Position numbers and translations under genes: made by a program. Shown here piece after piece: positions 1-24,180 of a stretch of 64,000 bases of DNA. Location: assembly GCA_000004985.1 (NCBI GenBank), contig GG738871.1; one strand, written 5' to 3'. Numbering within the stretch: the stretch's first letter is position 1; every line of letters begins with the position of its first letter. This stretch comes from Naegleria gruberi (taxonomy: Eukaryota). Below the pieces are notes generated by a model. That model did not search any database. It had not been told where the DNA came from and saw only the letters and a program-made list of their open reading frames with translations.

Positions 1-402
1 CCCAAACCCAAACCCAAACCCAAACCCAAACCCAAACCCAAACCAAAACCAAAACCCAAACCCAAACCCAAACCCAAACCCAAACCCAAACCCAAACCCA
101 AACCCAAACCCAAACCCAAACCCAAACCCAAACCCAAACCCAAACCCAAACCCAAACCCAAACCCAAACCCAAACCCAAACCCAAACCCAAACCCAAACC
201 CAAACCCAAACCCAAACCCAAACCCAAACCCAAACCCAAACCCAAACCCAAACCCAAACCCAAACCCAAACCCAAACCCAAACCCAAACCCAAACCCAAA
301 CCCAAACCCAAACCCAAACCCAAACCCAAACCCAAACCCAAACCCAAACCCAAACCCAAACCCAAACCCAAACCCAAACCCAAACCCAAACCCAAACCCA
401 AA
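1..402. repeat. Terminal telomeric repeat (CCCAAA)n, about 67 units. G-strand TTTGGG points outward, so this is a left chromosome end. One variant unit (ccaaaa x2) at 43-54
   Basis: Perfect hexamer periodicity read directly. The C-rich strand is 5'->3' on the + strand at the window start. The tract ends abruptly at 402 into unique AT-rich DNA. Confidence 0.9.
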
Positions 403-1073
403 TTATATATTTTCATTTCAAGAAATACATCCGGTAGATAGTACATGGGGATATTTCAAGAGAATGGATGGAAATCTGAAAGGTATATAAACAACTCCAT
501 TTTCACTGAAATTGATATCATGGTATGTAGCCACTCTAATTAGCATATGGTATCAATTTCATGAATATTGGTTCAGTAGATATTGAGTTGTCAACTCTAT
601 CACAATACTATAGACTTTTGAAATAAAATCACAGATTATGCTCCAACTCACTCATTATACGAACAGTCATTCTAAAATCGATACCACATAGATTACACAT
701 CAGTTAAATACACTGTTAATAGTTTGGAAACAATTCGTAGTACGTACAATTAGTGAGTCAGATAATGTTCAATGTCAATAGTGCTTATATCCAAGTGTAC
801 ACTCTATCTCAATGAAAATACATCCAATCATCATGAAACTATACCATATACATTAAATCACATTTATATACATCTGGTATCAATTACATAGTGTTAGTAT
901 TGAATTCAATATGATAATAATAACAATCTGTCAAATTGTCACATTTCAACAAATAGAATATACTCCATCTCATTCATTTTACAAAATATCATACAAGCAT
1001 CAAATATGAATACACTCCTCTTGATGAGGAGAACAATCTGAGAAAGTTTCATATTCATGGCTCAATATCTTTC

Positions 1074-1123
1074 NNNNNNNNNNNNNNNNNNNNNNNNNNN
1101 NNNNNNNNNNNNNNNNNNNNNNN
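1074..1123. other. Assembly gap (50 N)
   Basis: Run of exactly 50 n. Confidence 0.99.
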
Positions 1124-1385
1124 CCCAACCCAAACCCAAACCCAAACCCAAACCCAAACCCAAACCCAAACCCAAACCCAAACCCAAACCCAAACCCAAA
1201 CCCAAACCCAAACCCAAACCCAAACCCAAACCCAAACCCAAACCCAAACCCAAACCCAAACCCAAACCCAAACCCAAACCCAAACCCAAACCCAAACCCA
1301 AACCCAAACCCAAACCCAAACCCAAACCCAAACCCAAACCCAAACCCAAACCCAAACCCAAACCCAAACCCAAACCCAAACCCAA
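1124..1385. repeat. Second (CCCAAA)n block, about 43 units, same orientation as the terminal tract. Either an interstitial/subtelomeric telomere repeat or a scaffold joining artefact
   Basis: Hexamer repeat read directly, immediately after a 50-N gap. First unit is cccaacc. Confidence 0.85.
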
Positions 1386-1678
1386 GGACTCAATTATCTC
1401 GGGAACGGCGAATTAAAAAAATTAGTATTTTCTATCATTTCTTCCAAAACTCATATAGATTGATATTTGAGTGAATCATAACCCGGAACGTTCTCGTCGC
1501 AGAGATAATAGATATACTATGAATTTTTGAGTTGACCATTTTTGATTATCTCAATAACTACGGGGAGTTTTTTCACGTGTATTACAGAATAGATATATTA
1601 ATGTATTTAATAATACATATATAAGAACTGGATAGCCAATATTAGCCGTTCGTTTTATGTGATTAGGTTTTCGCCATA

Positions 1679-1697
1679 CCCAAACCCAAACCCAACC
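1679..1697. repeat. Short degenerate telomere-like remnant (cccaaacccaaacccaacc)
   Basis: Seen directly, about 290 bp internal to the second block. Confidence 0.5.
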
Positions 1698-1899
1698 TAA
1701 AGGTCAGACCCAACTTTTTGACTTTTATTCATCTTAATTAATTATCTCAATAAATACTCATTATAAATCAATATATTATATATCAATATACTCCAAATTG
1801 AATATATAATCATATAATAACATAATATTACATCATTATAATGACTTTTATAAGTTAATTTCATATAATAGATTAGACAATTATAATATCAATGATAAC

Positions 1900-4800
1900 N
1901 NNNNNNNNNNNNNNNNNNNNNNNNNNNNNNNNNNNNNNNNNNNNNNNNNNNNNNNNNNNNNNNNNNNNNNNNNNNNNNNNNNNNNNNNNNNNNNNNNNNN
2001 NNNNNNNNNNNNNNNNNNNNNNNNNNNNNNNNNNNNNNNNNNNNNNNNNNNNNNNNNNNNNNNNNNNNNNNNNNNNNNNNNNNNNNNNNNNNNNNNNNNN
2101 NNNNNNNNNNNNNNNNNNNNNNNNNNNNNNNNNNNNNNNNNNNNNNNNNNNNNNNNNNNNNNNNNNNNNNNNNNNNNNNNNNNNNNNNNNNNNNNNNNNN
2201 NNNNNNNNNNNNNNNNNNNNNNNNNNNNNNNNNNNNNNNNNNNNNNNNNNNNNNNNNNNNNNNNNNNNNNNNNNNNNNNNNNNNNNNNNNNNNNNNNNNN
2301 NNNNNNNNNNNNNNNNNNNNNNNNNNNNNNNNNNNNNNNNNNNNNNNNNNNNNNNNNNNNNNNNNNNNNNNNNNNNNNNNNNNNNNNNNNNNNNNNNNNN
2401 NNNNNNNNNNNNNNNNNNNNNNNNNNNNNNNNNNNNNNNNNNNNNNNNNNNNNNNNNNNNNNNNNNNNNNNNNNNNNNNNNNNNNNNNNNNNNNNNNNNN
2501 NNNNNNNNNNNNNNNNNNNNNNNNNNNNNNNNNNNNNNNNNNNNNNNNNNNNNNNNNNNNNNNNNNNNNNNNNNNNNNNNNNNNNNNNNNNNNNNNNNNN
2601 NNNNNNNNNNNNNNNNNNNNNNNNNNNNNNNNNNNNNNNNNNNNNNNNNNNNNNNNNNNNNNNNNNNNNNNNNNNNNNNNNNNNNNNNNNNNNNNNNNNN
2701 NNNNNNNNNNNNNNNNNNNNNNNNNNNNNNNNNNNNNNNNNNNNNNNNNNNNNNNNNNNNNNNNNNNNNNNNNNNNNNNNNNNNNNNNNNNNNNNNNNNN
2801 NNNNNNNNNNNNNNNNNNNNNNNNNNNNNNNNNNNNNNNNNNNNNNNNNNNNNNNNNNNNNNNNNNNNNNNNNNNNNNNNNNNNNNNNNNNNNNNNNNNN
2901 NNNNNNNNNNNNNNNNNNNNNNNNNNNNNNNNNNNNNNNNNNNNNNNNNNNNNNNNNNNNNNNNNNNNNNNNNNNNNNNNNNNNNNNNNNNNNNNNNNNN
3001 NNNNNNNNNNNNNNNNNNNNNNNNNNNNNNNNNNNNNNNNNNNNNNNNNNNNNNNNNNNNNNNNNNNNNNNNNNNNNNNNNNNNNNNNNNNNNNNNNNNN
3101 NNNNNNNNNNNNNNNNNNNNNNNNNNNNNNNNNNNNNNNNNNNNNNNNNNNNNNNNNNNNNNNNNNNNNNNNNNNNNNNNNNNNNNNNNNNNNNNNNNNN
3201 NNNNNNNNNNNNNNNNNNNNNNNNNNNNNNNNNNNNNNNNNNNNNNNNNNNNNNNNNNNNNNNNNNNNNNNNNNNNNNNNNNNNNNNNNNNNNNNNNNNN
3301 NNNNNNNNNNNNNNNNNNNNNNNNNNNNNNNNNNNNNNNNNNNNNNNNNNNNNNNNNNNNNNNNNNNNNNNNNNNNNNNNNNNNNNNNNNNNNNNNNNNN
3401 NNNNNNNNNNNNNNNNNNNNNNNNNNNNNNNNNNNNNNNNNNNNNNNNNNNNNNNNNNNNNNNNNNNNNNNNNNNNNNNNNNNNNNNNNNNNNNNNNNNN
3501 NNNNNNNNNNNNNNNNNNNNNNNNNNNNNNNNNNNNNNNNNNNNNNNNNNNNNNNNNNNNNNNNNNNNNNNNNNNNNNNNNNNNNNNNNNNNNNNNNNNN
3601 NNNNNNNNNNNNNNNNNNNNNNNNNNNNNNNNNNNNNNNNNNNNNNNNNNNNNNNNNNNNNNNNNNNNNNNNNNNNNNNNNNNNNNNNNNNNNNNNNNNN
3701 NNNNNNNNNNNNNNNNNNNNNNNNNNNNNNNNNNNNNNNNNNNNNNNNNNNNNNNNNNNNNNNNNNNNNNNNNNNNNNNNNNNNNNNNNNNNNNNNNNNN
3801 NNNNNNNNNNNNNNNNNNNNNNNNNNNNNNNNNNNNNNNNNNNNNNNNNNNNNNNNNNNNNNNNNNNNNNNNNNNNNNNNNNNNNNNNNNNNNNNNNNNN
3901 NNNNNNNNNNNNNNNNNNNNNNNNNNNNNNNNNNNNNNNNNNNNNNNNNNNNNNNNNNNNNNNNNNNNNNNNNNNNNNNNNNNNNNNNNNNNNNNNNNNN
4001 NNNNNNNNNNNNNNNNNNNNNNNNNNNNNNNNNNNNNNNNNNNNNNNNNNNNNNNNNNNNNNNNNNNNNNNNNNNNNNNNNNNNNNNNNNNNNNNNNNNN
4101 NNNNNNNNNNNNNNNNNNNNNNNNNNNNNNNNNNNNNNNNNNNNNNNNNNNNNNNNNNNNNNNNNNNNNNNNNNNNNNNNNNNNNNNNNNNNNNNNNNNN
4201 NNNNNNNNNNNNNNNNNNNNNNNNNNNNNNNNNNNNNNNNNNNNNNNNNNNNNNNNNNNNNNNNNNNNNNNNNNNNNNNNNNNNNNNNNNNNNNNNNNNN
4301 NNNNNNNNNNNNNNNNNNNNNNNNNNNNNNNNNNNNNNNNNNNNNNNNNNNNNNNNNNNNNNNNNNNNNNNNNNNNNNNNNNNNNNNNNNNNNNNNNNNN
4401 NNNNNNNNNNNNNNNNNNNNNNNNNNNNNNNNNNNNNNNNNNNNNNNNNNNNNNNNNNNNNNNNNNNNNNNNNNNNNNNNNNNNNNNNNNNNNNNNNNNN
4501 NNNNNNNNNNNNNNNNNNNNNNNNNNNNNNNNNNNNNNNNNNNNNNNNNNNNNNNNNNNNNNNNNNNNNNNNNNNNNNNNNNNNNNNNNNNNNNNNNNNN
4601 NNNNNNNNNNNNNNNNNNNNNNNNNNNNNNNNNNNNNNNNNNNNNNNNNNNNNNNNNNNNNNNNNNNNNNNNNNNNNNNNNNNNNNNNNNNNNNNNNNNN
4701 NNNNNNNNNNNNNNNNNNNNNNNNNNNNNNNNNNNNNNNNNNNNNNNNNNNNNNNNNNNNNNNNNNNNNNNNNNNNNNNNNNNNNNNNNNNNNNNNNNNN

Positions 4801-7086
4801 NNNNNNNNNNNNNNNNNNNNNNNNNNNNNNNNNNNNNNNNNNNNNNNNNNNNNNNNNNNNNNNNNNNNNNNNNNNNNNNNNNNNNNNNNNNNNNNNNNNN
4901 NNNNNNNNNNNNNNNNNNNNNNNNNNNNNNNNNNNNNNNNNNNNNNNNNNNNNNNNNNNNNNNNNNNNNNNNNNNNNNNNNNNNNNNNNNNNNNNNNNNN
5001 NNNNNNNNNNNNNNNNNNNNNNNNNNNNNNNNNNNNNNNNNNNNNNNNNNNNNNNNNNNNNNNNNNNNNNNNNNNNNNNNNNNNNNNNNNNNNNNNNNNN
5101 NNNNNNNNNNNNNNNNNNNNNNNNNNNNNNNNNNNNNNNNNNNNNNNNNNNNNNNNNNNNNNNNNNNNNNNNNNNNNNNNNNNNNNNNNNNNNNNNNNNN
5201 NNNNNNNNNNNNNNNNNNNNNNNNNNNNNNNNNNNNNNNNNNNNNNNNNNNNNNNNNNNNNNNNNNNNNNNNNNNNNNNNNNNNNNNNNNNNNNNNNNNN
5301 NNNNNNNNNNNNNNNNNNNNNNNNNNNNNNNNNNNNNNNNNNNNNNNNNNNNNNNNNNNNNNNNNNNNNNNNNNNNNNNNNNNNNNNNNNNNNNNNNNNN
5401 NNNNNNNNNNNNNNNNNNNNNNNNNNNNNNNNNNNNNNNNNNNNNNNNNNNNNNNNNNNNNNNNNNNNNNNNNNNNNNNNNNNNNNNNNNNNNNNNNNNN
5501 NNNNNNNNNNNNNNNNNNNNNNNNNNNNNNNNNNNNNNNNNNNNNNNNNNNNNNNNNNNNNNNNNNNNNNNNNNNNNNNNNNNNNNNNNNNNNNNNNNNN
5601 NNNNNNNNNNNNNNNNNNNNNNNNNNNNNNNNNNNNNNNNNNNNNNNNNNNNNNNNNNNNNNNNNNNNNNNNNNNNNNNNNNNNNNNNNNNNNNNNNNNN
5701 NNNNNNNNNNNNNNNNNNNNNNNNNNNNNNNNNNNNNNNNNNNNNNNNNNNNNNNNNNNNNNNNNNNNNNNNNNNNNNNNNNNNNNNNNNNNNNNNNNNN
5801 NNNNNNNNNNNNNNNNNNNNNNNNNNNNNNNNNNNNNNNNNNNNNNNNNNNNNNNNNNNNNNNNNNNNNNNNNNNNNNNNNNNNNNNNNNNNNNNNNNNN
5901 NNNNNNNNNNNNNNNNNNNNNNNNNNNNNNNNNNNNNNNNNNNNNNNNNNNNNNNNNNNNNNNNNNNNNNNNNNNNNNNNNNNNNNNNNNNNNNNNNNNN
6001 NNNNNNNNNNNNNNNNNNNNNNNNNNNNNNNNNNNNNNNNNNNNNNNNNNNNNNNNNNNNNNNNNNNNNNNNNNNNNNNNNNNNNNNNNNNNNNNNNNNN
6101 NNNNNNNNNNNNNNNNNNNNNNNNNNNNNNNNNNNNNNNNNNNNNNNNNNNNNNNNNNNNNNNNNNNNNNNNNNNNNNNNNNNNNNNNNNNNNNNNNNNN
6201 NNNNNNNNNNNNNNNNNNNNNNNNNNNNNNNNNNNNNNNNNNNNNNNNNNNNNNNNNNNNNNNNNNNNNNNNNNNNNNNNNNNNNNNNNNNNNNNNNNNN
6301 NNNNNNNNNNNNNNNNNNNNNNNNNNNNNNNNNNNNNNNNNNNNNNNNNNNNNNNNNNNNNNNNNNNNNNNNNNNNNNNNNNNNNNNNNNNNNNNNNNNN
6401 NNNNNNNNNNNNNNNNNNNNNNNNNNNNNNNNNNNNNNNNNNNNNNNNNNNNNNNNNNNNNNNNNNNNNNNNNNNNNNNNNNNNNNNNNNNNNNNNNNNN
6501 NNNNNNNNNNNNNNNNNNNNNNNNNNNNNNNNNNNNNNNNNNNNNNNNNNNNNNNNNNNNNNNNNNNNNNNNNNNNNNNNNNNNNNNNNNNNNNNNNNNN
6601 NNNNNNNNNNNNNNNNNNNNNNNNNNNNNNNNNNNNNNNNNNNNNNNNNNNNNNNNNNNNNNNNNNNNNNNNNNNNNNNNNNNNNNNNNNNNNNNNNNNN
6701 NNNNNNNNNNNNNNNNNNNNNNNNNNNNNNNNNNNNNNNNNNNNNNNNNNNNNNNNNNNNNNNNNNNNNNNNNNNNNNNNNNNNNNNNNNNNNNNNNNNN
6801 NNNNNNNNNNNNNNNNNNNNNNNNNNNNNNNNNNNNNNNNNNNNNNNNNNNNNNNNNNNNNNNNNNNNNNNNNNNNNNNNNNNNNNNNNNNNNNNNNNNN
6901 NNNNNNNNNNNNNNNNNNNNNNNNNNNNNNNNNNNNNNNNNNNNNNNNNNNNNNNNNNNNNNNNNNNNNNNNNNNNNNNNNNNNNNNNNNNNNNNNNNNN
7001 NNNNNNNNNNNNNNNNNNNNNNNNNNNNNNNNNNNNNNNNNNNNNNNNNNNNNNNNNNNNNNNNNNNNNNNNNNNNNNNNNNNNNN
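1900..7086. other. Large assembly gap (5187 N) lying inside the NHL-repeat gene
   Basis: Continuous n run. The ORF-track entries 1889..7540(-) and 1892..7102(+) are translations of N and are not real. Confidence 0.99.
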
Positions 7087-9753
7087 CAGTTGGGGAAGCT
7101 AGCAAAGCAAGGTTTGCAACATTATCATCTCCACTAAATCCAAATTTACCTGTTCCAGAAATTGTCTTAATACCTCCCTTAATATTATCAATCATTCTAA
7201 TCCTATTAGTTTCAGATTCCGAAATGACCATCTTGTTGTCTGTAGTTAACAGAATTTTTGTGGGATTTACATTAGCATAAAAGACATTCGATCCATCTGC
7301 AATACCTCCTACAAGTGGTTCCGTTCGACCATTTGATAAAACTAAATTTCCTGCTGTATAAACAAAATATGGCACTTCTGAGCATAAACCAATCGGAGAT
7401 AGTATTTTTTCATGGAAGGATGAAATTACACCTCCATTAATTATACGAATTTTGTTATTAGCAGTATCAGCAATATAAATAGATTGGTCAATGACATATA
7501 CCATACTTGGTAGGAAGAGTTTTGCCTGTGTTGCAACCATACCATCACCATTATATCCTTATTCTCATCAATATTCATTAATGTATTAGAAACTTACCTG
7601 ATTCACCTGTTCCAGCAATGATTTCAACCTTGAAATCATAATAAACACACAATATTCTGTGATTATAAGTATCTAATATAAATTAATGTATCCTAACTAG
7701 TAGGAAAGAGAAACTTACCTGCTACAAAGAGATTATGATTTGAAACAAACAATCCAAATGGTGAATTCAATTGAGTTTCTTTAGGATTATTGGGAACAAG
7801 GCTAGATCCAGTAATTCCATTTCCTAACACTGTACTAATAGTTCCATTGAAAAAAGATCTGACTCTATGATTGAAAGAATCTGAAATGTATAAAATTTCA
7901 GAATCATAGAATACATATTTTGGTAAGTTGAGATGAGTTTCTAATGGATTCAATCCGTCTCCATTAAATCCATTAGTACCACTTCCAACAATTGTGGTTA
8001 TTGTTCCATTAGGAAATATCATTCTAATTCTGTGGTTTCCACTGTCAGCAATGTAAATATTACCAGAATTCTTATCAAAATGAACTGAATGAGGTTTGTT
8101 TAATTGAGCATTAATTGCCAAACCTCCATCACCAGAAAATCCCTGAAATCCAATACCAGCAATAACCTCTACCATTTCGTTTGAGGTATATTTGAGAATT
8201 CTATGATTATCAGTATCCGCAATATAAATCGTAGAAAATGAATCGAGACAGAATATTCCTGTTGGATTTTTCAAAATTATTGAGGACGGAGGACCTTTCT
8301 TTCTTAATCTATCACCAGTAATGGAACCAGCATATAAACAACCGTTTCCTTTAGATACATCTATTTTTTGAATCATTTTAGTTGATGAAACGTATAAATC
8401 AGAATTTCTGAGTTGTAATGCATTGGGAATGAATTTTGAACGGATAAAACTCTCATTAGTCTCTTCAGAAGAATTCCAACATGAAACATTTGAAAATTTG
8501 TCTATTAATGGAATGGTAGACACAGTTCCAGTTGTCAAATCCACTTTCTTTAAATTAAATCCAAAATTAGAATCAGCAATTAATAGTTCATTACTTGATT
8601 GATTGAACGCAATAGCAGCTATTGAATCAAACACTCTATTTTGCACATTAGTACCATCAATAATAGCTCCATTAATATTTAAAATTGGATAAACTTGTTT
8701 AAGGGACAAATCAGCTTTCATTATAGCTTGTGCATGAAAAATATGATTTGGTGAGAAAAAAGTTGGTGATACAATAGATGAATCGAACAACAAAATGGTC
8801 GAAATATTCCCAGTAGTTTGATTAATCACTTTCCAATATCCTAAATTTGAAAGATAAATTGAATCGTCAATAGGAGAAACTGCAAATCCATACACAAAAT
8901 TAAGTTTAGCATCCAAAGCAGGTCCATCATTGGTATTTCCATCAAATTTTCTCCCTTGAATGACAGTCATCCACCATGTTTGTAAATTAATCTTGAATAT
9001 TGAGAATAAATCACATCCATACAAGTATCCCTTGTGATATCTTATATTCGAAATATAAGTTGAAAACATTGTTTCGTTTGAAAAGCCATCTTTCTTGGTT
9101 AGTGTAAATCCATCTCGCAAACTCATAAACTTAATAATTCCGTTTAAATCAACTCTATATAGGTTTGATTCATCACAAATATACAAGTTTCCAATAGGAT
9201 CCCTAGAAATTGAACCAATTTTGGTAAAAATGGTATTCGAAAGTGCTGAACCTTCCTGAATGGTAGTGGAAGTTCCTAACTGCTTGGAAAGAAGAATTAA
9301 ATTTCCATTTTGAAATTTGTAGATCTGCTTGTTGGTAGCAATATAAATAGTGTCGTATGAAGTTTCGTCCACATGAAAACTAGTAATGGTGAGATAAACG
9401 GTAGTTGCACTATTGATATCACCAGTAGAAACCGAATTCTCGGTCATACAACCAGAATAACAACCAACCAATAATTTTCGATCACCAGAAGTTTGATTAA
9501 ATTTAAAAATACGAAAAGAAGATTCCTGAAAATAAATAATTTCTGGCTGATTTTCGGATTGGTATGCATTGGCAAAAGCTGTTGAAAATTTGCCTACACC
9601 ACTGATAGGTTCCCATCTATACGCAACCAGTTTCGAATAACCAAGCTGAACAAACAAGAATAAACTCAGCAAAATGAGCAGACGCATTTTTCTTTTGATT
9701 CCAATACACATATGATTGATGACTTTAGTGCACCATTTAAAGTTTCTGATCAT
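7087..9753 (-). CDS. Secreted NHL-repeat protein, 5' part of a gene whose 3' part is lost in the N gap. Exons (minus strand): 9753 (or Met at 9687)..7719, 7672..7598, 7557..<=7087. Introns are 46 nt (7718..7673) and 40 nt (7597..7558)
   Basis: 686-aa ORF with a signal-peptide-like MRLLILLSLFLFVQLGYS after an internal Met. Repeated NHL consensus, e.g. YIADTDNHRILKY, VIAGIGFQGFSGDGGLA, YIADSGNHRIRMI. Exon joins are chosen so the NHL repeat reads through: ...NLFVAG|DTYNHRIL... and ...IIAGTGESG|YNGDGMVATQAKL.... Donors are CAG|GTAAGT and acceptors ATTAG| and ATAAG|. Confidence 0.75.
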
Positions 9754-10563
9754 TACATTTGAAAATTAATCTAACAATAAATTTACATTGATTGTAATGT
9801 TGTGGAGGCTTGAAAAATGAAAAGGTTTGTAGATGGAGAAAATTCACATCATCAACACATGAACTACACAGTTGTCGGTGGTAAATATAATGGTAGAGAA
9901 TAATATAATAAACATATTATGAATTGTTGTTTTATTATATTGTTTGAAACTTACGGTGCATAGCGTGAAATATCGGAACTTGGTAAATTGACAACATGAC
10001 GAAAATCTGATAATAAATATGATGTTTATTATCTATTTAAATAGTAGTACTAAAAGACATGATTCAAGTTGGTGAAGTACATGCTTAGTTATGATCCATG
10101 TTATTTTTGTTTTTCAAAATTCACATGTACCTATCCCTATCATAACTTGACCAAAATTGATTAGAGAAAGTTCTCCTACCTACTATTGACCATTCCGAAC
10201 AATACTACATTGACAGTTTTCCAACTTGTCCAGTAGATCCGGCAGTAATGATGAATTTAGTGAAAACATTTCATCAAAATTACATTACTAAAAATTAATT
10301 TCCACAAATACTATTATTATATTGATGGAAAACAATAATGACGATGGTTGGTGAATGATCCGATGATGGAACACCAAATTGTGAATTTCCATCATGAAAA
10401 ATAAATTCCAATTTCATGATGATAATTCACCAATAAAAATTACTATTATTACTATTATATAGATCATGTTGAGATGATGATGTGAAAGTTTGGTGGTTTC
10501 ATGATGTAAACCACTCCGAAATCATCATATCCTCCTGAGTAGAAGAATGTTTTTTTTATGAAA

Positions 10564-10613
10564 NNNNNNNNNNNNNNNNNNNNNNNNNNNNNNNNNNNNN
10601 NNNNNNNNNNNNN
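10564..10613. other. Assembly gap (50 N)
   Basis: Run of 50 n in the intergenic region. Confidence 0.99.
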
Positions 10614-10701
10614 CAATCACTTCCGAATATTTCCTGGTACTCTAATATTTCATCAAATAATTTGCAAAACTTAATGTTATTGAGAATTTTTTGCTCCCTC
10701 A

Positions 10702-13700
10702 CTAAACAGTCATTAATTCAACTTCTTTTTTGGTGGCTATTTCAGGCTGTTTCTTTCTTCTCAAACACTTAACAATAATAATTACTAAAATACTAATGAT
10801 GACACAACAGCAACAACATATACCTAATCCAAGTAACCCAAATAGCCCATACAACTCAGAATTGGATTGGTTGCTATTTGGTATTGATATTGGCAATGTA
10901 ATTGTTGATGTGGAAAGAGTTTTTTCCACCACCACTAATGATGTAACATCTTTTGAGCAATTACAATGTATTAATGAATTGGAAACAATTAGAGAGCAAT
11001 TTAGATTACCTTCACTGAATAGATTATCTATTGGAATACATTCAAGAGTTGAAATGATATTTGTTTTTTGTTGTTTAACTGTTTCACCTGAGCTCTCAAA
11101 ATAGTTATTCACATTAATATTTGAAAAGTTGTAATCATTACGAATGTTGAAGGTAAATGAAATATCAGCAGCATACACCTTATCCAGAAATACAATCTTA
11201 GTGAGTAATCTATAGCTCTGTTTCAATTCAAGTTGTTCAAACTCTGAAACTTGGATATTCTGTGTAGTTGAAATTTGATTCAGATAATCAAAGACACCCA
11301 TATAATCTTCCACTGAGAAAAATGATGTCTCTAGAACAGATCTACTTGGAACATTAGGATCAATTCTATTGAATACAAGAGTGCTATTTCCATCAGAGGA
11401 AGTTATTGTCTTTTTCATTTGATTCTTGTAACTCAAGAGAGAAAATATTGAAAAATGTGAAAGATGTACATGGTAATCCTTTTGACCGACATTATAATTT
11501 CTCAACAAGACATTAGTGAATTTCTTCATTGAATTCAAAACTCCATATCTATAATTTTGTCTGAGTTCACTACAGTTTGTTAATAATCTTATAATATTAT
11601 CAAACAAGCTGTTGCACAATGTTTCAACACCATAAGCTACTCTGAATTTAGTATTCTGATTGGCCAAGTTAATGATTCTCTCTGTCAAATTGAAAAATTT
11701 ATCAAATGGAAGTGATTCAATAGAGTGGCAATTTGAAATTAATGATTCCAATCCAAAAACGTAAACGCTGAAATGAATATCCGAAATTAACTCCAAAGGA
11801 CTTTTCTGATCTAATCCAATAGCCATGCTATTGATCATTTCTTCTCTCAATCCATATGCAACGTCCATGTTCAAGTTTCTTGCTTGGCTCAACTGGGCAA
11901 TCATTAGTTCTGAAGTTCTTGAAATTGTAGCAGAATTGAAAACTAATTTAGCACTGTCACTTGGTAGGTATGATGCAGCATAGGATTGCCATGACTTTAC
12001 TTTGCTTTTAACATTTGATAGAGATGCTGCTGCAGGAGTTAAGATTTCAACAGTTTTGATAAACTCAACAGATGCTCCTGTATCCAAATCAACAATGTCA
12101 ACAAATGTATCCATTTGTTTTGAAAAAAATGGAGAAGGAAGGTATGAAGAAAACTTTTCTCCTAAATTGTAAAGTGGAATTTTTGTTCCTGACTTGTCGT
12201 CAATGAATCCAAAAACAAAATCAATTGATTTTTCTGTATTTTGACACCCAGGACAAGAAAATGAGAATTGAGTCTCTAATGCATATCCATATGATGGATT
12301 AATATAGCAGAGACATGATTTTGGAGATTTGACAAGTTTGAATTTGTAAGAAAATATTGATGATAGATTATTTCTTCTATCTGTTACTTTGAATAATATT
12401 TCATTTTCTGTATCCTCTATGAAGGTGGAAAGTGAAAGGATTAATGATGAGGATTTTGATGGATTAACTGACATTTTGGAAATCATCGAGTCAGTCAATG
12501 TAGCACCATTGATTGTCCATTCTCTGATCATATCATCTTCAGTTGTGTATTTTTCATCTCCTCCCAAAATAACGGATAATTGTAAACTCAAGACTTCACC
12601 TTTGATAACTTTCACTCTGTTTGGTTTGACAGAAATTAAACTAATCACAGGTGGAATCAATAATTCCGTACTTGGAAAATCAATATCTACTGATTTTGAT
12701 ATGTAACGTATTCCTTTTTGGATTGACAATGTTAAAGTAACTTTTGAAAGTGACGATTTTTGAATAGTACATTTTGGAGACTTCAAGTTTGAACATTGGT
12801 TTAAAATATTTGAAATTAATGAATCCTGACATGAATTTTTTGAGATTCTGTCAAAGCAAGACCAAGTCCATGAATCAGAAGTTGATACATCATTATCTGG
12901 ATCTGAATATTCAACATTAGTTTCAGCTTGATTTGTATTCAAATTGGAAAGATAAATATTGACTGATAAATCTCTTGATTTGCTGGATATTGGAATAAGT
13001 AATGTTGCATTTGAATTTGAATTAAATTTTGATATTGCTTTAACACCAAATAAAAAGGATTCATCTTGGCTATTTGAAATTCCAGTTATAACTAAATCAT
13101 TGTTAACATCTATCTGATAATCAATGGTAGAACCTGATGCTTGGTACCAAATATATTCAAATTCCTTGTTTTCAAAATAGCAAGCAGGTAATTCAATAGA
13201 TTTCTTTACAACTATTGGAAGAGAACTTTTCTCAATATTGATTAATGACATTTTACTTGTCAGCATTGAAAGTGTTGGATGTGGAACAAATGATTTAGAA
13301 ATTTCAATAAATTGCTTTTCACTCTTTGAACCACTGAGAGAACTTTCTACAATTAATCCCAATACATACATTCCTGAAATGGAAATGTTGTTTGAATTCA
13401 AAGTGGAATTGAAATTACTTAAAGATATTTTTTCTAGACTGAAATTCGGATCTGGGGACGATTCAATTGACCAAATAAATTTGACTGGTTTCAAATCTCC
13501 ACAATATGATCCTGATGCATCAATTAATATTTCTTCACATGGACTGATACTTTTCTTATATGCAACACTAATGATTGGTTTCACTGGATTATTGGAAGGA
13601 AGTATAGTAACGGATAACGGGCAATTAATGTTAGAAAGTTCATTGTTATCAAGTGCATTTACATTCAAAGTAATATTTAGGAAGGGCAATAAAGAATGTT

Positions 13701-16700
13701 GACCACCAAGTTCAATATAGAAATTACCATCTTTCCAAAAGCATGATGGGTTATTTCCAAATAAAGTTAAACTATCATCTAATAGCAGCTTACTACACTC
13801 TACAAAGCTATTATTGCAGCCAAGTTGCCAGTTATTCATATGAAATTCTAAAGTATTTCCAAAAGAATTAAAAGTTGGTTGTGGACTTTGGGCAAAACAC
13901 CTTGTTCCAATAAAACCAACATTACATTGACAATTATTTTCATCAACACAGAAACCGTTTCCTGAACAAGTTAATGGATCTGCTTGTAATTTTCCAAAAC
14001 AAGAAGTCTTTGTAAAACTTGTCAACAATTCACATTGCAAACCATGATGAAGTGAATTACATTGACATGTGTTGTTTGAGGTACAATTACCATTACCACT
14101 ACAAACTCTTGAATCATTCATTTCATATCCAAAACATTTGGTAACTAAAACAGTGTTTGAAGAGGTTGTTGTTGTATTGGAGGTTGCATTATTTAAGGAA
14201 ACATTGGTATCATTGATTGTTCCAACATTGGTTGAATTTAAGAAACCTGTCGAAGAATTATTAATGGTATTTGTATAATTGTTATTTACAAACATTAAAG
14301 AAGTGTTACTATTAGCTGTAGTATTTGATAATACTGAGTTATTACTCAAGACGGAAGAATTTGAAACTGGTACTGTACTGCAGTTGGTGCATGTAGAATT
14401 ATCTAGTGCCATTGATGAATTAGTCAAATTATTTGTTGAATTGTTACTGGAAGTATTATTCATTAGTGAGCTATTATTAATGAAACCTTCAGTAATATTT
14501 CCAAAATTGGTGGTATTATCAAAAGCTGGAGATGAGTTATTAATGGCAGTATTTGTGTAATTGTTATTAAGGGTTGAGTTATCAATGGAAGTGTCATTAC
14601 TCAATACTTTTGTTGTATTTGAGGTTAAGCTATTATTTGTTGCATTTTTCATGTTTTCAACAGTGGCAGTTTCATTGCAAAACAGTCCAGTTGATCCTTC
14701 ATTACAATTACACACAGCTCTAACGAAACAACTTCCATTTCCACTACAAACCAATGAAGAGTTTGACAGAATACCGAAACATGAAGTCACACTGCAAGTA
14801 TTATCATTGTAACCCTCTTTACATTCACAAATATCAAAGTCGACGCATTTTCCATTTCCGTTGCATACATTAGACTCATCACTCAAGATTCCAAAGCAAT
14901 ATATTTTGGAACAATCATCACCATAATAATTATCAAAGCATTCACAACCATTAAAACTTGTGCAATCGCCATTTCCAAAACAAGCTGAATCATTATTGTA
15001 AAATACACCAAAGCAAGTGAAGTTTTGTAAACAATATCCATATTTGTCTCTTTCACAATCAACAATATAACTATAGAGTCCATAACCAGCTGTATCATCA
15101 ATGAAAACAACATCTCCATCTTGGTTGAAACTGGAGCTAGCTATCTTGAATGTTAAATTGGTTGGATTGACAAAATATGCATCAATCTTTGGATCATACC
15201 AAAACTTTGAACTTTTAGTCTCTCCATAATAAGTTCCATCCTTTAAGAATTCTGAAAAAGAGTTAATATAATCAGCATTTCTAAAATATTTTGGACCAGT
15301 TATGGTTCCATTTCCAAGCACATCCACTACAACTCCTTCATCACGAATTACTCTTCTAATAGGATAATCACAACCACCAGTGTCTCTTATGAAATATATA
15401 TCTCCATTTTCAGCAATAGTCCATCCATATTTACTGAGGGGGGACCTATCACTTGGTGTTCTCAAACCTTGACCTGCAATTTGAACAATCTTGGTACCAT
15501 TTACTACTTTATAAACACCTTGATTACAAGTATCACCTATCATGAAAATTGTTCCATTTTGATCTATTGTCCAGCTTATTGGACTATACGGTAAGCCGTA
15601 AGCAACAGGTGTAATTTCAGTATCTATAATTTTCAACTTGGCAATATAATAGTCTTTAGTATGGAGAGAGGATGAGCAGGTCACATAAATTTCATCATTG
15701 AAACAGAGAATATTTGTAACTGTACAATAATCAACTTTTCCATCAACGGTACGATTTAAGGTTCTTGTTGACAACGTTTGGCTGGTAAGATTAAAGAATG
15801 ATAAATAGGAAGAAGAAATTTCTGAGAACACAAGTGTGTCATCACTTAATAAACAGAGACGTTTCGGTACTGTTCTAGAAAAAGATGCTATTGTTGTGTG
15901 TGTATCATTTGTTGGATCATAGCCAACAACAGATTTTGCCAAGTAGTAAATATTACCATTAGACTTTCTAATAACAAAGCTATTCACTGAATCACCAATA
16001 AAAAAAACTGTTCTCAAAGTAGTCGAATTAATTCGTTCGAAAATATATGAAGAATAACCTGTTTGATATGCAAAGTAGAAATTTTGTGATACTGGATGAA
16101 ATATCATTGTACTGAATAAAGCTGCTGATGTAGGCATAAGATCTCCCTCAGAGGGACGAGGCATTTCGTACAAATTGTTATATCCTCGCCCAACCAAGGG
16201 CATTACCCTATTTTGATTGTCTATATATGAAATAATATTGCTTGTTCTCAGATATAAAGTACCAGTTATTGGATGTGACATAATTCCTAATAACGAGTCA
16301 AATTTAACATCTTTAGCATCTGAATATAATCCAGAAAGACTTATTCCTTCCTGATATCCAACACCAAATACTTTTTTGATGGTGAGATTGGACAGATCCA
16401 GTAGAAATATTCTATGTTGATCAGCTCCATAGCTGAAAAATAAACAACCATTCAAATATTGCATATTCAAGAACTCGGTAATTGAAATATCTAATGAGGA
16501 TTGTCCATCATATTGATATCCAGTTGATGAAGAGCTGTTTCCTGCTATTAATTGTAATAATTTTGAATAAATGTTGAACTTGTATATGAAGTTAGTCACC
16601 TTAGTGTTATTTTTAAACTCAGTGGCAATGAATAAATCCTCTCTTGTTGATTTATCTACTATGCATTGGTAAATATCGTTATTCAAAGTAATCAATGGTT

Positions 16701-17928
16701 TCAATAAACCACTTTTATGCTTCAGTCTGTACACTGTTCGCTTATCCTGTCCAATAATAATAAAATCCCCATTTCTATATGTTTTAATAGGTTTGAAAGT
16801 TGGACTGAATTGAAATCCATGAATGTAGGTTGATAAGGATAAATCCTCCTTGACAAATCCTGCAACATTTTTAGTATTCGAATATTGGTCCACCGTAATT
16901 ATATTAGTTGGTAATGACATGTAATATTTAAGGTTATTATTATATGGAATTATTGAAATTCCTGTGAAAGTATTGGGTCCCAGAGTTTGCAAAGTCTGAT
17001 TACTTCGTTTCAAGTCAATGGTCTCCTTTCCAAATCCAAATACCAGTTCGATATTACCTTCTCTATTTATTTTTCTCACAACAGAATTTGAGTTGTCTGA
17101 AAAATAAATCTCACCATCAATCATTGTGATCAATTTTGGGGAAATAACGCAAGCTTCAAAAGCTAGTCCACTATAGGAGGAATTGAATGAACAGGATGAC
17201 CAACTACCTTTTTCTGCAGCAACTCTAAATAAGGTTCCATTTTGAATTTTCATAATAGAGTTATAAATTGTAAAATAAACTATTCCATTTCGAACAAGAT
17301 AAGATGATGGTGGTCTTAAGGCAGTTGATAAAGCGTTTGAACCATCAGCTGGCATTGCTGTAGTTGTGAATTGATTACCTGCAATTGCAGTTGAACTTTG
17401 TGCTGTTGTATTCACAAATTTAATTCTGTTAAGGCTGTATACAACCAAATTTCCGTATTCATCATCACCGAATATTGTAATTGAACTAGATCCTCCAAAT
17501 GTAACTAATGTGGAAACTGTGTTGTTTTCATGATTAATTACTTTCACTTTACCACTGTATTTCTCTATATAAATACATTGTCCGTTTGAATTTCTTTTTA
17601 GTGAAAGAACCTCTGAAAGAAATTGTTTATCATCAACATCAAGGGTTTTCAGTAAATAAACACTAACAGTTTTCGTAGAAGCATAGTATCTTTTCAAAAA
17701 CTTGCCTTCCCGAAAAATAATATCCTCATTATCTAATACGCACAAGTCTGCAGGTGCAACATTTGCTAAACTGAATACAATATTGGATCCTAATGCTCTA
17801 TCAACAGGTTTAACAATAGATAATTTTGATACATAATTCGGAATTGCATCTACTTGAAAGAATTTGCTTAATAAACTGCTAAGGAGGAAACAAGCAATTA
17901 CCCCAAACAAACAAGAAGAAACTCTCAT
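10702..17928 (-). CDS. Giant (2408 aa) single-exon type I membrane protein. Order: signal peptide, about 950 aa of NHL/beta-propeller repeats, tenascin-type EGF-like Cys repeats flanking an Asn/Ser/Thr-rich heavily sequon-loaded stalk, a roughly 1000-aa uncharacterised ectodomain, one TM helix, and a short basic cytoplasmic tail
   Basis: Uninterrupted 7.2-kb ORF with a verified ATG at 17928..17926. Hydrophobic N-terminus MRVSSCLFGVIACFLLSSLLS. NHL-like repeats (IAGNQFTTTAMPADGSNALSTALRPPS...VYFTIYNSIMKI). EGF-like CxxxxCxGNGxCxxxxxCxCxxGYxGxxC units (CFGNGDCTSFNGCECFDNYYGDDC, CNGNGKCVDFDICECKEGYNDNTC, CSGNGSCFVRAVCNCNEGSTGLFC, CSGNGNCTSNNTCQCNSLHHGLQC). C-terminal LGLGICCCCCVIISILVIIIVKCLRRKKQ. 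Confidence 0.85.
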   Translation of the reverse strand: MRVSSCLFGVIACFLLSSLLSKFFQVDAIPNYVSKLSIVKPVDRALGSNIVFSLANVAPADLCVLDNEDIIFREGKFLKRYYASTKTVSVYLLKTLDVDDKQFLSEVLSLKRNSNGQCIYIEKYSGKVKVINHENNTVSTLVTFGGSSSITIFGDDEYGNLVVYSLNRIKFVNTTAQSSTAIAGNQFTTTAMPADGSNALSTALRPPSSYLVRNGIVYFTIYNSIMKIQNGTLFRVAAEKGSWSSCSFNSSYSGLAFEACVISPKLITMIDGEIYFSDNSNSVVRKINREGNIELVFGFGKETIDLKRSNQTLQTLGPNTFTGISIIPYNNNLKYYMSLPTNIITVDQYSNTKNVAGFVKEDLSLSTYIHGFQFSPTFKPIKTYRNGDFIIIGQDKRTVYRLKHKSGLLKPLITLNNDIYQCIVDKSTREDLFIATEFKNNTKVTNFIYKFNIYSKLLQLIAGNSSSSTGYQYDGQSSLDISITEFLNMQYLNGCLFFSYGADQHRIFLLDLSNLTIKKVFGVGYQEGISLSGLYSDAKDVKFDSLLGIMSHPITGTLYLRTSNIISYIDNQNRVMPLVGRGYNNLYEMPRPSEGDLMPTSAALFSTMIFHPVSQNFYFAYQTGYSSYIFERINSTTLRTVFFIGDSVNSFVIRKSNGNIYYLAKSVVGYDPTNDTHTTIASFSRTVPKRLCLLSDDTLVFSEISSSYLSFFNLTSQTLSTRTLNRTVDGKVDYCTVTNILCFNDEIYVTCSSSLHTKDYYIAKLKIIDTEITPVAYGLPYSPISWTIDQNGTIFMIGDTCNQGVYKVVNGTKIVQIAGQGLRTPSDRSPLSKYGWTIAENGDIYFIRDTGGCDYPIRRVIRDEGVVVDVLGNGTITGPKYFRNADYINSFSEFLKDGTYYGETKSSKFWYDPKIDAYFVNPTNLTFKIASSSFNQDGDVVFIDDTAGYGLYSYIVDCERDKYGYCLQNFTCFGVFYNNDSACFGNGDCTSFNGCECFDNYYGDDCSKIYCFGILSDESNVCNGNGKCVDFDICECKEGYNDNTCSVTSCFGILSNSSLVCSGNGSCFVRAVCNCNEGSTGLFCNETATVENMKNATNNSLTSNTTKVLSNDTSIDNSTLNNNYTNTAINNSSPAFDNTTNFGNITEGFINNSSLMNNTSSNNSTNNLTNSSMALDNSTCTNCSTVPVSNSSVLSNNSVLSNTTANSNTSLMFVNNNYTNTINNSSTGFLNSTNVGTINDTNVSLNNATSNTTTTSSNTVLVTKCFGYEMNDSRVCSGNGNCTSNNTCQCNSLHHGLQCELLTSFTKTSCFGKLQADPLTCSGNGFCVDENNCQCNVGFIGTRCFAQSPQPTFNSFGNTLEFHMNNWQLGCNNSFVECSKLLLDDSLTLFGNNPSCFWKDGNFYIELGGQHSLLPFLNITLNVNALDNNELSNINCPLSVTILPSNNPVKPIISVAYKKSISPCEEILIDASGSYCGDLKPVKFIWSIESSPDPNFSLEKISLSNFNSTLNSNNISISGMYVLGLIVESSLSGSKSEKQFIEISKSFVPHPTLSMLTSKMSLINIEKSSLPIVVKKSIELPACYFENKEFEYIWYQASGSTIDYQIDVNNDLVITGISNSQDESFLFGVKAISKFNSNSNATLLIPISSKSRDLSVNIYLSNLNTNQAETNVEYSDPDNDVSTSDSWTWSCFDRISKNSCQDSLISNILNQCSNLKSPKCTIQKSSLSKVTLTLSIQKGIRYISKSVDIDFPSTELLIPPVISLISVKPNRVKVIKGEVLSLQLSVILGGDEKYTTEDDMIREWTINGATLTDSMISKMSVNPSKSSSLILSLSTFIEDTENEILFKVTDRRNNLSSIFSYKFKLVKSPKSCLCYINPSYGYALETQFSFSCPGCQNTEKSIDFVFGFIDDKSGTKIPLYNLGEKFSSYLPSPFFSKQMDTFVDIVDLDTGASVEFIKTVEILTPAAASLSNVKSKVKSWQSYAASYLPSDSAKLVFNSATISRTSELMIAQLSQARNLNMDVAYGLREEMINSMAIGLDQKSPLELISDIHFSVYVFGLESLISNCHSIESLPFDKFFNLTERIINLANQNTKFRVAYGVETLCNSLFDNIIRLLTNCSELRQNYRYGVLNSMKKFTNVLLRNYNVGQKDYHVHLSHFSIFSLLSYKNQMKKTITSSDGNSTLVFNRIDPNVPSRSVLETSFFSVEDYMGVFDYLNQISTTQNIQVSEFEQLELKQSYRLLTKIVFLDKVYAADISFTFNIRNDYNFSNINVNNYFESSGETVKQQKTNIISTLECIPIDNLFSEGNLNCSLIVSNSLIHCNCSKDVTSLVVVEKTLSTSTITLPISIPNSNQSNSELYGLFGLLGLGICCCCCVIISILVIIIVKCLRRKKQPEIATKKEVELMTV

Positions 17929-18688
17929 ACAATTTTTTTCTCAAAAGATTCAGTGAAGAGCCAATAAAAACATAGTATCACAACCGCAAAAGAATCTCTG
18001 TCTGTTAAGGTGAATTAAGTGATTAAGGGGCATTGAATTTCCAAGTTTTCTAAAACTTCTGTACATTCGTAAATTGAACCAATAAGAAAATAAGTCCAAA
18101 TAAGGATTGTTCTTGCAAACTAATAAGAATAGTGCTGTGAGAAATCATGGAGAACGTTTTTTTAAGGCCATCATTGTTTACCGTAATGTAAAGTTAATTC
18201 ACAGTATTGAGGAGTCTCAATGAATCAAGATTTTTCAAAAATAATGGAGACGCAACTCAAGACGCAGTCTGACTAGTCTCCAGCGAGCTGTAGTGTATTA
18301 TTAAAGGCCCAGACCTCTTGTGAGGATGTTTCACTGTTCAGTTGCCTTCAAATAGATTCAAATCTAGACAGGAACCTTCAGTACCTTATTTAGATCTAAT
18401 TTAATGAACAGTGAAAGAAAGAGAAAATAATTCAAATTGTTCAGTGTGCGAGAAAATAATGTAGAATCGATATATTGATTTGGGAAGATGTGGTGAGTTT
18501 GACATAAATCTACAAGAGAATAAACCCGAGAACAATAAATCAAAAAAGTTATTGGCATTGTTTTGTTGAGAGATATGCCAATTCCAGTATTAGCATCCAT
18601 TATTTACTATTAAATCAACATATTTTAACAATTAGAGATTTTCAAAATTAGGCCAGTTGACTTGTTTTGATGTTTTTGAAAAGAAAAA

Positions 18689-20413: not shown

Positions 20414-20457
20414 ACTGAACTAAACCAAAAAGAAACCTTGGCACCATTTTCAAAAAA

Positions 20458-21567: not shown

Positions 21568-21622
21568 AGATGTTAGGGTTGATCCTTAGCAAGCAATTCA
21601 CCCTTAATGATTTCATTGTGAA

Positions 21623-21696
21623 GCCGTCATAGCTCAGTTGGATAGAGCACAGGACTTCTAATCCTGGGGTCGTGGGTTCGAGCCCCATTGTCGGTA
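21623..21696 (+). tRNA. tRNA-Arg(UCU): tRNA-Arg (anticodon UCU)
   Basis: Cloverleaf read by hand: acceptor GCCGTCA/TGTCGGT (one U-U mismatch), D arm GCTC-AGTTGGATA-GAGC, anticodon stem CAGGA/TCCTG with loop CTTCTAA, T arm GTGGG-TTCGAGC-CCCAT. Followed by a T-run (atttttaatttt) as a Pol III terminator. Confidence 0.8.
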
Positions 21697-22146
21697 TCTG
21701 ATTTTTAATTTTCAGATAAAGCAGTGCGGTTTTTAAGATTATATTGTTTAAGATTAAAGTTTTACAATTTTATTTCAAATTCAGTTCTAAATGATATGAG
21801 TAGCCGGAAAAGATCATGTTACTCGTGCTATGTCTCCACTCGCAAATATAATCCGAAAACGAATAGCATCACCGAAGTGTACACCTTAATCTCTATCAAA
21901 CTTAATGTTCCTTTAGGTCAAGGAATTTATGTTTATGGTGTTTCATAGGGAAGTAGTGTAAGTTTTTTATGAATCTTAGAGATTGATGAGATATTTAGAA
22001 TTAACTGGAAGACAAAACATGTAAAAGCTGTTGTATTGGTCAACACTCATTGAATCTATGGCAATGATTTCTTCACATTTGGTTTAAATTATGTAGCTCA
22101 GCAATTACTGCAAATTTGTGGAGATGTTAAAAGCTCGAGGAGATGA

Positions 22147-23241: not shown

Positions 23242-24180
<939 letters not shown>

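What the first reader, a model, noticed from the sequence alone, without database searches (positions are those of the whole stretch)
403..1899. Duplicated telomere-repeat blocks separated by unique DNA and scaffold gaps
A second 262-bp (CCCAAA)n block at 1124-1385 and a degenerate remnant at 1679-1697 lie internal to the terminal tract, in the same orientation. They are separated from it by 670 bp of unique AT-rich sequence and a 50-N gap. This is either a real interstitial telomeric sequence, such as a healed or duplicated subtelomere, or a scaffolding artefact in which two telomere-bearing contigs were chained. The downstream NHL gene is cut by a 5.2-kb gap, so this end of the scaffold is poorly assembled.
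Basis: partly seen in the sequence, partly recalled or inferred. Interest (0 to 1): 0.5.

Follow-up and report, generated by a model that had tools for sequence, protein, structure and literature searches.

The report
Two telomere-capped contigs chained at scaffold end
The start of this Naegleria gruberi scaffold carries the species' known TTTGGG telomere twice because two short telomere-bearing contigs were most likely strung together across a placeholder gap, so this is an ordinary draft-assembly feature; only a tiny decayed telomere remnant nearby is certainly internal.

Summary
(CCCAAA)n occupies 1-402 and 1124-1385. A 40-bp decayed remnant lies at 1674-1713, with an exact core at 1679-1695.

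The window is the start of a 417,575-bp Naegleria gruberi scaffold. TTTGGG was already proposed as that species' telomere in 2013.

Block 2 begins exactly at the gap edge, and 42 of its 43 units are perfect. It sits on a 776-bp contig, next to a 1,073-bp contig. The 50-N gap is a placeholder size: three of the four multi-N gaps in the window are exactly 50. The two unique segments share no similarity, so "duplicated subtelomere" is rejected.

My best reading (about 0.55) is that block 2 is a genuine terminal telomere of a second version of this chromosome end, either the other homologue or a truncated and healed copy. Mate pairs would then have chained both ends into one line. A real 262-bp-plus interstitial tract on one molecule is not excluded (about 0.25). 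No reads or second assembly could be reached, so this stays unresolved.

The small remnant is a real short interstitial telomeric sequence. The published gene model XP_002676590.1 uses it as a spurious last exon. Interest is low.

The parts
1..402 (+). Terminal telomere tract, C-rich strand, (CCCAAA)67, with two CCAAAA variant units at 43-54. Its orientation is correct for a left chromosome end.
   Evidence: TTTGGG is reported as the candidate N. gruberi telomere in PMC3622300.
403..1073 (.). u1: 671 bp of unique, AT-rich (29.7% GC), non-coding DNA. It is the rest of contig A (1-1073).
   Evidence: No similarity to u2 or to the rest of the window. No open frame over 50 aa. The only Pfam match is far below its curated cut-off, and there is no Rfam or tRNA hit.
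1074..1123 (.). 50-N scaffold gap of placeholder size.
   Evidence: Three of the four multi-N gaps in the window are exactly 50 N (1074, 10564, 25114). The flanks of these gaps do not overlap.
1124..1385 (+). Second (CCCAAA)n block of 262 bp: 42 perfect units plus a first unit CCCAA. It starts at the very first base of contig B and has the same orientation as the terminal tract.
1386..1673 (.). u2a: 288 bp of unique non-coding DNA (30.9% GC) between block 2 and the remnant.
   Evidence: No Pfam match above its curated cut-off, and no Rfam or tRNA hit.
1674..1713 (+). Decayed short interstitial telomeric sequence in the same orientation: CCATA CCCAAA CCCAAA CCCAA CCTAAA GGTCAGA CCCAA. The exact 17-bp core is at 1679-1695.
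   Evidence: It is the only match outside the two blocks, and chance expects 0.01. Telomere repeats align to it at 75-80% identity over 40-56 bp. It is flanked by unique sequence on both sides within one contig.
1714..1899 (.). u2b: extremely AT-rich (15.6% GC) stretch with short AT-rich tandem repeats, running up to the large gap.
1900..7086 (.). 5,187-N gap with a size estimate. It must contain the 3' end of the NHL gene.
1666..1722 (-). Spurious last exon of gene model XP_002676590.1 / NAEGRDRAFT_68122. It encodes the last 19 aa, KLGLTFRLGLGLGMAKT; GLGLGLG is the translated telomere remnant.
   Evidence: tblastn of P0001 against the window, translation, accession.
7087..9687 (-). NHL-repeat gene (exons 9687-7711, 7682-7596, 7564-7145 in the model). 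The frame continues open to the gap edge at 7087, so its 3' end is missing.

Best explanation
Block 2 (1124-1385) is not an interstitial tract. It is the telomere of a second telomere-capped DNA end. Contig A (telomere plus u1, 1,073 bp) and contig B (telomere plus u2, 776 bp) are two alternative versions of the end of the same chromosome arm in the sequenced N. gruberi culture. They are either the two homologues of a heterozygous diploid with different terminal sequence, or a full-length copy and a truncated copy healed by telomerase at 1386.

A clone that starts in a telomere must have its mate a few kb further in. Both contigs would therefore carry mate-pair links, in the same orientation, to the unique NHL-gene contig. 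The scaffolder had to put two non-overlapping contigs into one line, so it placed them one after the other with its minimum 50-N gap.

The order telomere-u1-telomere-u2 would therefore not exist on any single molecule.

Separately, the 40-bp remnant at 1674-1713 is real and internal. It is the decayed stump of an older telomere onto which about 290 bp of new DNA and a new telomere were added, by end capture or healing.

**Shown:** the anatomy, the organism and the telomere motif, the placeholder gap size, the purity of block 2, the absence of any u1-u2 similarity, and the internal position of the remnant.

**Inferred:** the mate-pair mechanism, and which of the two alternative-end scenarios applies.
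For: 1. Block 2 starts at the first base after the gap. No sequenced base lies distal to it, so contig B looks exactly like a chromosome-end contig.
2. Block 2 has 42 of 43 perfect units. That is purer than the terminal tract itself, which has 2 variants in 67, whereas the one certainly internal copy in this window (1674-1713) is heavily decayed. Purity is what telomerase-maintained ends show.
3. Contig A ends in unique sequence with no CCCAAA at its right end, so no assembled read joins u1 to a telomere tract or to u2.
4. The 50-N gap is a floor value, not a measurement: three of the four multi-N gaps are exactly 50.
5. Contigs of 1,073 and 776 bp are about one to two Sanger reads long (the read length is from my own knowledge). 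There are three gaps in the first 7 kb, against contigs of 14.5 kb and over 38 kb further in. This indicates thin coverage, as expected for haplotype-specific or subpopulation-specific ends.
6. Naegleria is described as a heterozygous diploid, citing the N. gruberi genome paper (PMC9928731). The scaffold carries a single ambiguous base at 22153.
7. Both tracts having the same orientation is the automatic outcome for any telomere-bearing contig scaffolded by inward-pointing mates (inference).
8. A survey of 143 genome assemblies notes that most assemblies with terminal telomere repeats also show internal blocks over 100 bp (PMC3622300).
Against: - No read, mate-pair or long-read data could be examined, so the mechanism is inferred.
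- Gaps and short contigs near a chromosome end are also expected for a real structure, because clone coverage falls near ends.
- The remnant at 1674-1713 proves that this end has internalised a telomere at least once before. That makes a second, more recent internalisation (a real interstitial block 2) plausible.
- A freshly internalised tract would also be perfectly homogeneous.
Confidence: 0.55

Rival explanations
1. Real interstitial telomeric block. On one chromosome the order is terminal telomere, u1 (at least 671 bp), an internal (CCCAAA) tract of at least 43 units, u2, the decayed remnant, then the NHL gene. The end would have been extended twice, by capture of foreign DNA onto a shortened telomere followed by new telomere synthesis, or by break-induced replication. 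This would leave nested telomere tracts in one orientation, older ones further in.
For: - The remnant at 1674-1713 is an unquestionable internalised telomere stump in the same orientation, only 288 bp proximal to block 2. The process has therefore happened here before.
- The scaffolder did place A distal to B.
- The order of decay, with the remnant decayed and block 2 intact, fits a series with the oldest innermost.
- Low clone coverage near ends can explain the gaps (inference).
Against: - Block 2 has no sequenced distal flank, and contig A shows no repeat at its right end.
- A perfect tract of 43 or more units that is purer than the terminal tract would have to be very recent.
- The 50-N gap carries no distance information.
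- u1 and u2 are unrelated, so this is not the tandem-element type of subtelomere in which long internal tracts are known (my own knowledge of yeast Y' arrays).
Confidence: 0.25
2. Plain mis-join. Contig A or contig B belongs to a different chromosome end, or derives from a chimeric clone. It was pulled into this scaffold by spurious links, for example through a subtelomeric repeat hidden in the 5.2-kb gap.
For: - Both contigs are tiny and flanked by gaps.
- The 5.2-kb unassembled stretch could hide a repeat shared between chromosome ends (inference).
- u1 and u2 are unrelated.
Against: - The contig on the other side of the gap carries an NHL gene. The protein search found no second N. gruberi copy of it at E <= 1e-10, so links that jump the gap should be specific.
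- Scaffolders normally need several concordant mate pairs (my own knowledge).
Confidence: 0.15
3. u1 is the end of a telomere-targeted mobile element, like MoTeR of Magnaporthe, SART/TRAS of Bombyx or GilM/GilT of Giardia. It would have inserted into the telomere array and split it in two.
For: The telomere-insert-telomere layout with both tracts intact is what such insertions produce (my own knowledge; MoTeR is described in bioRxiv 10.1101/845669, listed).
Against: - u1 has no open frame over 50 aa.
- Pfam gave no match above its curated cut-off and nothing resembling a reverse transcriptase or endonuclease.
- There is no poly(A) or poly(T) at the junction with the terminal tract, and no second copy in the window.
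Confidence: 0.03

Closest known systems
Naegleria gruberi candidate telomere (TTTGGG)n, Fulneckova et al. 2013 (PMC3622300)
   Same: Same organism, same hexamer, found at an assembly terminus in the correct orientation.
   Different: Nothing differs for the 1-402 tract. The paper gives no account of this locus. The terminal position has not been verified experimentally, as the authors themselves note.
Internal telomere blocks produced when telomere-bearing contigs are chained in draft scaffolds (a general assembly artefact)
   Same: The block abuts a gap on its distal side, has the same orientation as the terminal tract, follows a placeholder gap, sits on a read-length contig, and has perfect repeat purity.
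   Different: Not demonstrated with reads here. The neighbouring genuine remnant shows that real internalisation also occurs at this end.
Short interstitial telomeric sequences left by end healing, end capture or repair (as in vertebrate short interstitial telomeric sequences and human subtelomere block boundaries)
   Same: The 40-bp remnant at 1674-1713 has a few units, is decayed, is flanked by unique DNA on both sides, and points toward the chromosome end.
   Different: It lies about 1.7 kb from the scaffold end in a heterolobosean. The event that created it is unknown.
Yeast Y' tandem subtelomeric elements separated by internal TG1-3 tracts
   Same: Telomere tracts alternate with non-telomeric segments in one orientation near the end.
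   Different: In yeast the segments between tracts are copies of one element. Here u1 and u2 are unrelated, so the defining feature is not met.

Membership tests
Terminal telomere tract of N. gruberi | Tandem array of the species' telomere unit (TTTGGG/CCCAAA) | tested here: met
   Blocks 1-402 and 1124-1385. Motif from PMC3622300. Organism.
Terminal telomere tract of N. gruberi | Lies at the physical end of the sequenced molecule, with the C-rich strand reading inward from a left end | tested here: met
   Block 1 starts at base 1 of the scaffold. Block 2 starts at base 1 of contig B. Both are C-strand on the + strand.
Terminal telomere tract of N. gruberi | Terminal position on the chromosome shown experimentally (Bal31 sensitivity or terminal restriction fragments) | not testable with these tools
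Interstitial telomeric sequence | Telomere repeats flanked on both sides by non-telomeric sequence within one contiguous piece of sequence | tested here: met
   Met for the remnant at 1674-1713, which lies inside contig B.
Interstitial telomeric sequence (block 2, 1124-1385) | Telomere repeats flanked on both sides by non-telomeric sequence within one contiguous piece of sequence | tested here: not met
   The distal flank is a 50-N placeholder gap, and contig A's right end has no repeat. The join rests on scaffolding only.
Chained telomere-bearing contigs (scaffolding artefact) | Internal block abuts a gap distally, has the same orientation as the terminal tract, and the gap size is uninformative | tested here: met
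Chained telomere-bearing contigs (scaffolding artefact) | Reads or read pairs show that the two tracts are never on one molecule | not testable with these tools
   No reads or second assembly were reachable.
Duplicated subtelomere or tandem subtelomeric elements (yeast Y'-like) | The segments following each telomere tract are copies of one another | tested here: not met
   blastn with word size 7 found no u1-u2 match. Repeat finding gave only chance-level matches of at most 34 nt.
Telomere-targeted retroelement (MoTeR, SART/TRAS, GilM/GilT-like) | Reverse transcriptase or endonuclease coding capacity, or a poly(A) junction, in the inserted segment | tested here: not met
   No open frame over 50 aa. 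The only Pfam matches are far below their curated cut-offs and unrelated to such enzymes. No A or T run at the junction with the terminal tract. The right end of u1 lies in the gap, so a longer element cannot be fully excluded.

The most novel reading that the evidence does not exclude
The layout is real on one molecule, or the two ends coexist in a clonal culture. In that case Naegleria chromosome ends turn over quickly by breakage, telomerase healing and capture of unrelated DNA. This would leave nested same-orientation telomere tracts: a 40-bp old stump, a perfect internal tract of at least 262 bp, and the current end. Such turnover would give a sequence-level basis for the chromosome-size polymorphism reported between Naegleria strains.
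Probability: 0.25. Interest if true: 0.35.

Novelty: already known. Interest (0 to 1): 0.13.

Why it matters
It matters mostly as quality control.

- **Scaffold reading:** the first 7 kb of this N. gruberi scaffold should not be read as a linear map.
- **Surveys:** the internal 262-bp telomere block should not be counted as an interstitial telomeric sequence.
- **Annotation:** the C-terminus of XP_002676590.1 (NAEGRDRAFT_68122) is an annotation artefact built from a telomere remnant across a 5.2-kb gap.

If the nested structure were real, it would be a modest first glimpse of how heterolobosean chromosome ends are remodelled. Nothing is published on that: PMC3622300 said no information was available before its in-silico motif call, and none of the papers my Naegleria telomere and subtelomere searches returned that I opened describe Naegleria chromosome ends.

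Tried and rejected
1. **Ciliate macronuclear origin.** My first guess was Paramecium-type telomeres with alternative telomere-addition sites. I rejected it. Standard-code open frames reach 2,412 aa, and the NHL protein is 100% identical to an N. gruberi protein.
2. **Dictyostelid origin.** I guessed this from composition. One search also rejects it.
3. **Independent copies of u1 and u2.**
   - Two exact-match scans of JGI metagenome contigs, with 25-nt and 38-nt unique probes, gave 0 hits.
   - The exact-protein contig index has no record for P0001.
   - The protein search returned no second N. gruberi-derived copy of the NHL protein, and its cluster has one member on one contig. I concluded that no other N. 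gruberi assembly is in these collections, so I ran no further search on short open frames from u1 and u2.
4. **Scan of bacterial and archaeal genomes for (CCCAAA)6.** It gave at least 120 contigs, mostly internal repeats in high-GC bacteria. This says nothing about the question and was a wasted scan.
5. **Function for u1 and u2.** Pfam on all open frames of 30 aa or more gave only two matches, both far below their curated cut-offs. Rfam at E <= 1 and tRNA search found nothing.
6. **Overlap across the 50-N gaps,** which would have proved negative gap estimates. None was found at any of the three gaps.
7. **Literature.** The N. gruberi genome paper and a Naegleria review are not held. The N. fowleri Nanopore paper does not mention telomeres. 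The Naegleria pangenome paper does not mention telomeres either, though it documents heterozygosity.
8. **Linear mini-chromosome or t-circle rolling-circle array.** I rejected both. A linear mini-chromosome would carry its second tract in the opposite orientation, and a rolling-circle array would repeat the same unique segment; here the two tracts have the same orientation and the intervening segments differ.

Full report
**Observation**

- Tandem Repeats Finder reports CCCAAA x67 at 1-402 (99% matches), an array at 1127-1385 (43.2 copies, 100% matches) and a small array at 1674-1695.
- Counted unit by unit, the terminal tract has 65 CCCAAA and two CCAAAA (43-54). The second block has 42 CCCAAA preceded by one CCCAA that touches the gap.
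- N runs lie at 1074-1123 (50), 1900-7086 (5,187), 10564-10613 (50), 22153 (1) and 25114-25163 (50).
- The 17-mer CCCAAACCCAAACCCAA, with up to two mismatches, matches only in the two blocks and at 1673-1695. Shuffles expect 0.01 matches.
- No G-strand run exists anywhere in the 64 kb.
- The remnant extends in decayed form over 1674-1713: CCATA CCCAAA CCCAAA CCCAA CCTAAA GGTCAGA CCCAA. Telomere repeats align to it at 75-80% identity over 40-56 bp.

**Whose DNA it is**

Standard-code open frames reach 2,412 aa, so this is not a ciliate with reassigned stop codons. The 690-aa NHL open frame at 7696-9765 (minus strand) is 100% identical to "predicted protein [Naegleria gruberi]", an 836-aa protein on a 417,575-bp contig. 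Its accessions are XP_002676590.1, EFC43846.1 and NAEGRDRAFT_68122. The window is therefore the first 64 kb of a scaffold of the published N. gruberi draft.

Fulneckova et al. 2013 searched genome assemblies and named TTTGGG as the candidate telomere of N. gruberi. They said beforehand that no information on its telomeres existed (PMC3622300). The same paper remarks that most assemblies with terminal repeats also contain internal stretches or blocks over 100 bp, and that terminal position needs experimental proof. The motif and the terminal tract at 1-402 are thus already known.

**Anatomy**

The N runs split the start of the scaffold into the following contigs.

| Contig | Coordinates | Length | Content |
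|---|---|---|---|
| A | 1-1073 | 1,073 bp | 402 bp telomere plus 671 bp u1 (29.7% GC) |
| B | 1124-1899 | 776 bp | 262 bp telomere, 288 bp u2a (30.9% GC), 40-bp remnant, 186 bp u2b (15.6% GC, AT-rich short tandem repeats) |
| C | 7087-10563 | 3,477 bp | NHL gene |
| next | 10614-25113 | 14,500 bp | |
| last | 25164-64000 | over 38 kb | runs beyond the window |

- u1 and u2 are unrelated to each other and to the remaining 57 kb. The best blastn hits are chance-level matches of 17-32 nt. This rules out a duplicated subtelomere or a Y'-like tandem element.
- Neither segment has an open frame over 50 aa.
- Pfam on all open frames of 30 aa or more found only two matches, both far below their curated cut-offs. 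Rfam at E <= 1 and the tRNA search found nothing.

**The gene next door**

tblastn of the 836-aa model places residues 1-659 at 9687-7711, 654-682 at 7682-7596 and 680-819 at 7564-7145. The last 19 residues map to 1722-1666, on the far side of the 5,187-N gap. Those residues, KLGLTFRLGLGLGMAKT, are the minus-strand translation of the telomere remnant.

Meanwhile the NHL frame itself stays open up to the gap edge at 7087, ending ...GKFGFSGDDNVANLALLASPT. The annotated C-terminus is an artefact.

**What could not be obtained**

- No reads, mate pairs or second assembly were reachable.
- Exact-match scans of the metagenome collection with unique probes from the start of u2 and the end of u1 found nothing.
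- The exact-protein contig index has no entry for the gene.
- The protein search returned no second Naegleria-derived copy.
- A scan of bacterial and archaeal genomes for (CCCAAA)6 returned only irrelevant bacterial repeats.
- A Nanopore-based N. gruberi assembly exists (PMC12695648), but it is not in any collection I can query.

**Weighing the explanations**

The three telomere-like pieces do not have equal standing.

The remnant is inside a contig with unique DNA on both sides. It is a genuine short interstitial telomeric sequence: the stump of an older telomere to which about 290 bp of other DNA and a new telomere were later added.

Block 2 is different.

- It begins at the first base of its contig, so nothing sequenced lies distal to it.
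- Contig A ends in unique sequence without a single repeat.
- The gap between them is the scaffolder's floor value, since three of the four multi-N gaps are exactly 50.
- The block is perfectly homogeneous. It is purer than the terminal tract, in sharp contrast to the decayed remnant 288 bp away.

A contig that starts with a pure telomere tract is, on its face, a chromosome end. Any telomere-bearing contig is oriented by mates that lie further inside. Two such contigs that both link to the NHL contig must therefore come out in the same orientation, one behind the other (inference).

Naegleria is described as a heterozygous diploid (PMC9928731). Read-length contigs and three gaps in 7 kb fit thin, haplotype-specific or subpopulation-specific coverage. 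The comparison with Sanger read length rests on my own knowledge.

I therefore prefer [quoted passage not shown] at about 0.55. The two ends could be two homologues, or a full-length and a truncated-and-healed copy; I cannot separate these.

A real internal tract on one molecule remains possible at about 0.25. The remnant shows internalisation has happened here before, a very recent event would still be pure, and coverage falls near ends anyway.

A plain mis-join from another chromosome end gets about 0.15. The apparent uniqueness of the NHL gene argues against it.

A telomere-targeted retroelement gets about 0.03. u1 has no coding capacity and no poly(A) at its sequenced junction with the terminal tract.

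**Comparison with what is known, and verdict**

The terminal tract is a member of the published N. gruberi TTTGGG telomere class. The remnant meets the definition of a short interstitial telomeric sequence. Block 2 fails the defining test for an interstitial sequence, which is non-telomeric flanks on both sides in contiguous sequence. It meets all the sequence-level signs of a chained end-contig. The read-level test cannot be done here.

Nothing lies outside known kinds, so interest is low (0.13). The practical outputs are three:

- a caution about the first 7 kb of this scaffold;
- a correction to the gene model XP_002676590.1;
- a precise long-read or PCR test that would settle the one open point.

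Noticed in passing
window 1666-1722 (-) and 7087-9687 (-): Gene model XP_002676590.1 / NAEGRDRAFT_68122 splices across the 5,187-N gap into a 19-aa last exon that translates the telomere remnant (…RLGLGLGMAKT). The true NHL frame runs open into the gap, so the annotated C-terminus is an artefact.
   Followed up: yes
window 7696-9765 (-): Apart from itself, the NHL protein's best database relatives are metagenome-derived proteins at 24-41% identity. Their source names are bacterial-style (YvrE lactonase, secretion-system C-terminal sorting domain, TIGR03437). No other eukaryote-labelled or N. gruberi hit appeared at E <= 1e-10. This may be a bacterial-origin gene sitting next to a chromosome end.
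   Followed up: no
window 10705-17940 (-): A single open frame of 2,412 aa with EGF-like, teneurin-EGF and REJ domains. It starts just after the 50-N gap at 10564-10613, so its 3' end may also be affected by a gap.
   Followed up: no
window 23245-24180 (-): Polyubiquitin gene with four ubiquitin repeats.
   Followed up: no
window 22153: A single N inside an otherwise continuous contig. It is probably an ambiguous consensus base, consistent with two collapsed haplotypes.
   Followed up: no
window 1714-1899: An extremely AT-rich stretch (15.6% GC) with short AT-rich tandem repeats of period 8-15, immediately before the 5.2-kb gap. This is a likely reason the contig breaks there.
   Followed up: partly
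loci L008, L015, L022, L025, L057, L080, L081, L095, L109 (contig or locus ends): Several metagenome-assembled bins labelled as bacteria have (CCCAAA)n or (TTTGGG)n exactly at a contig end in telomere-like orientation. These could be mis-binned eukaryotic chromosome ends or assembly artefacts. Most other hits are internal repeats.
   Followed up: no
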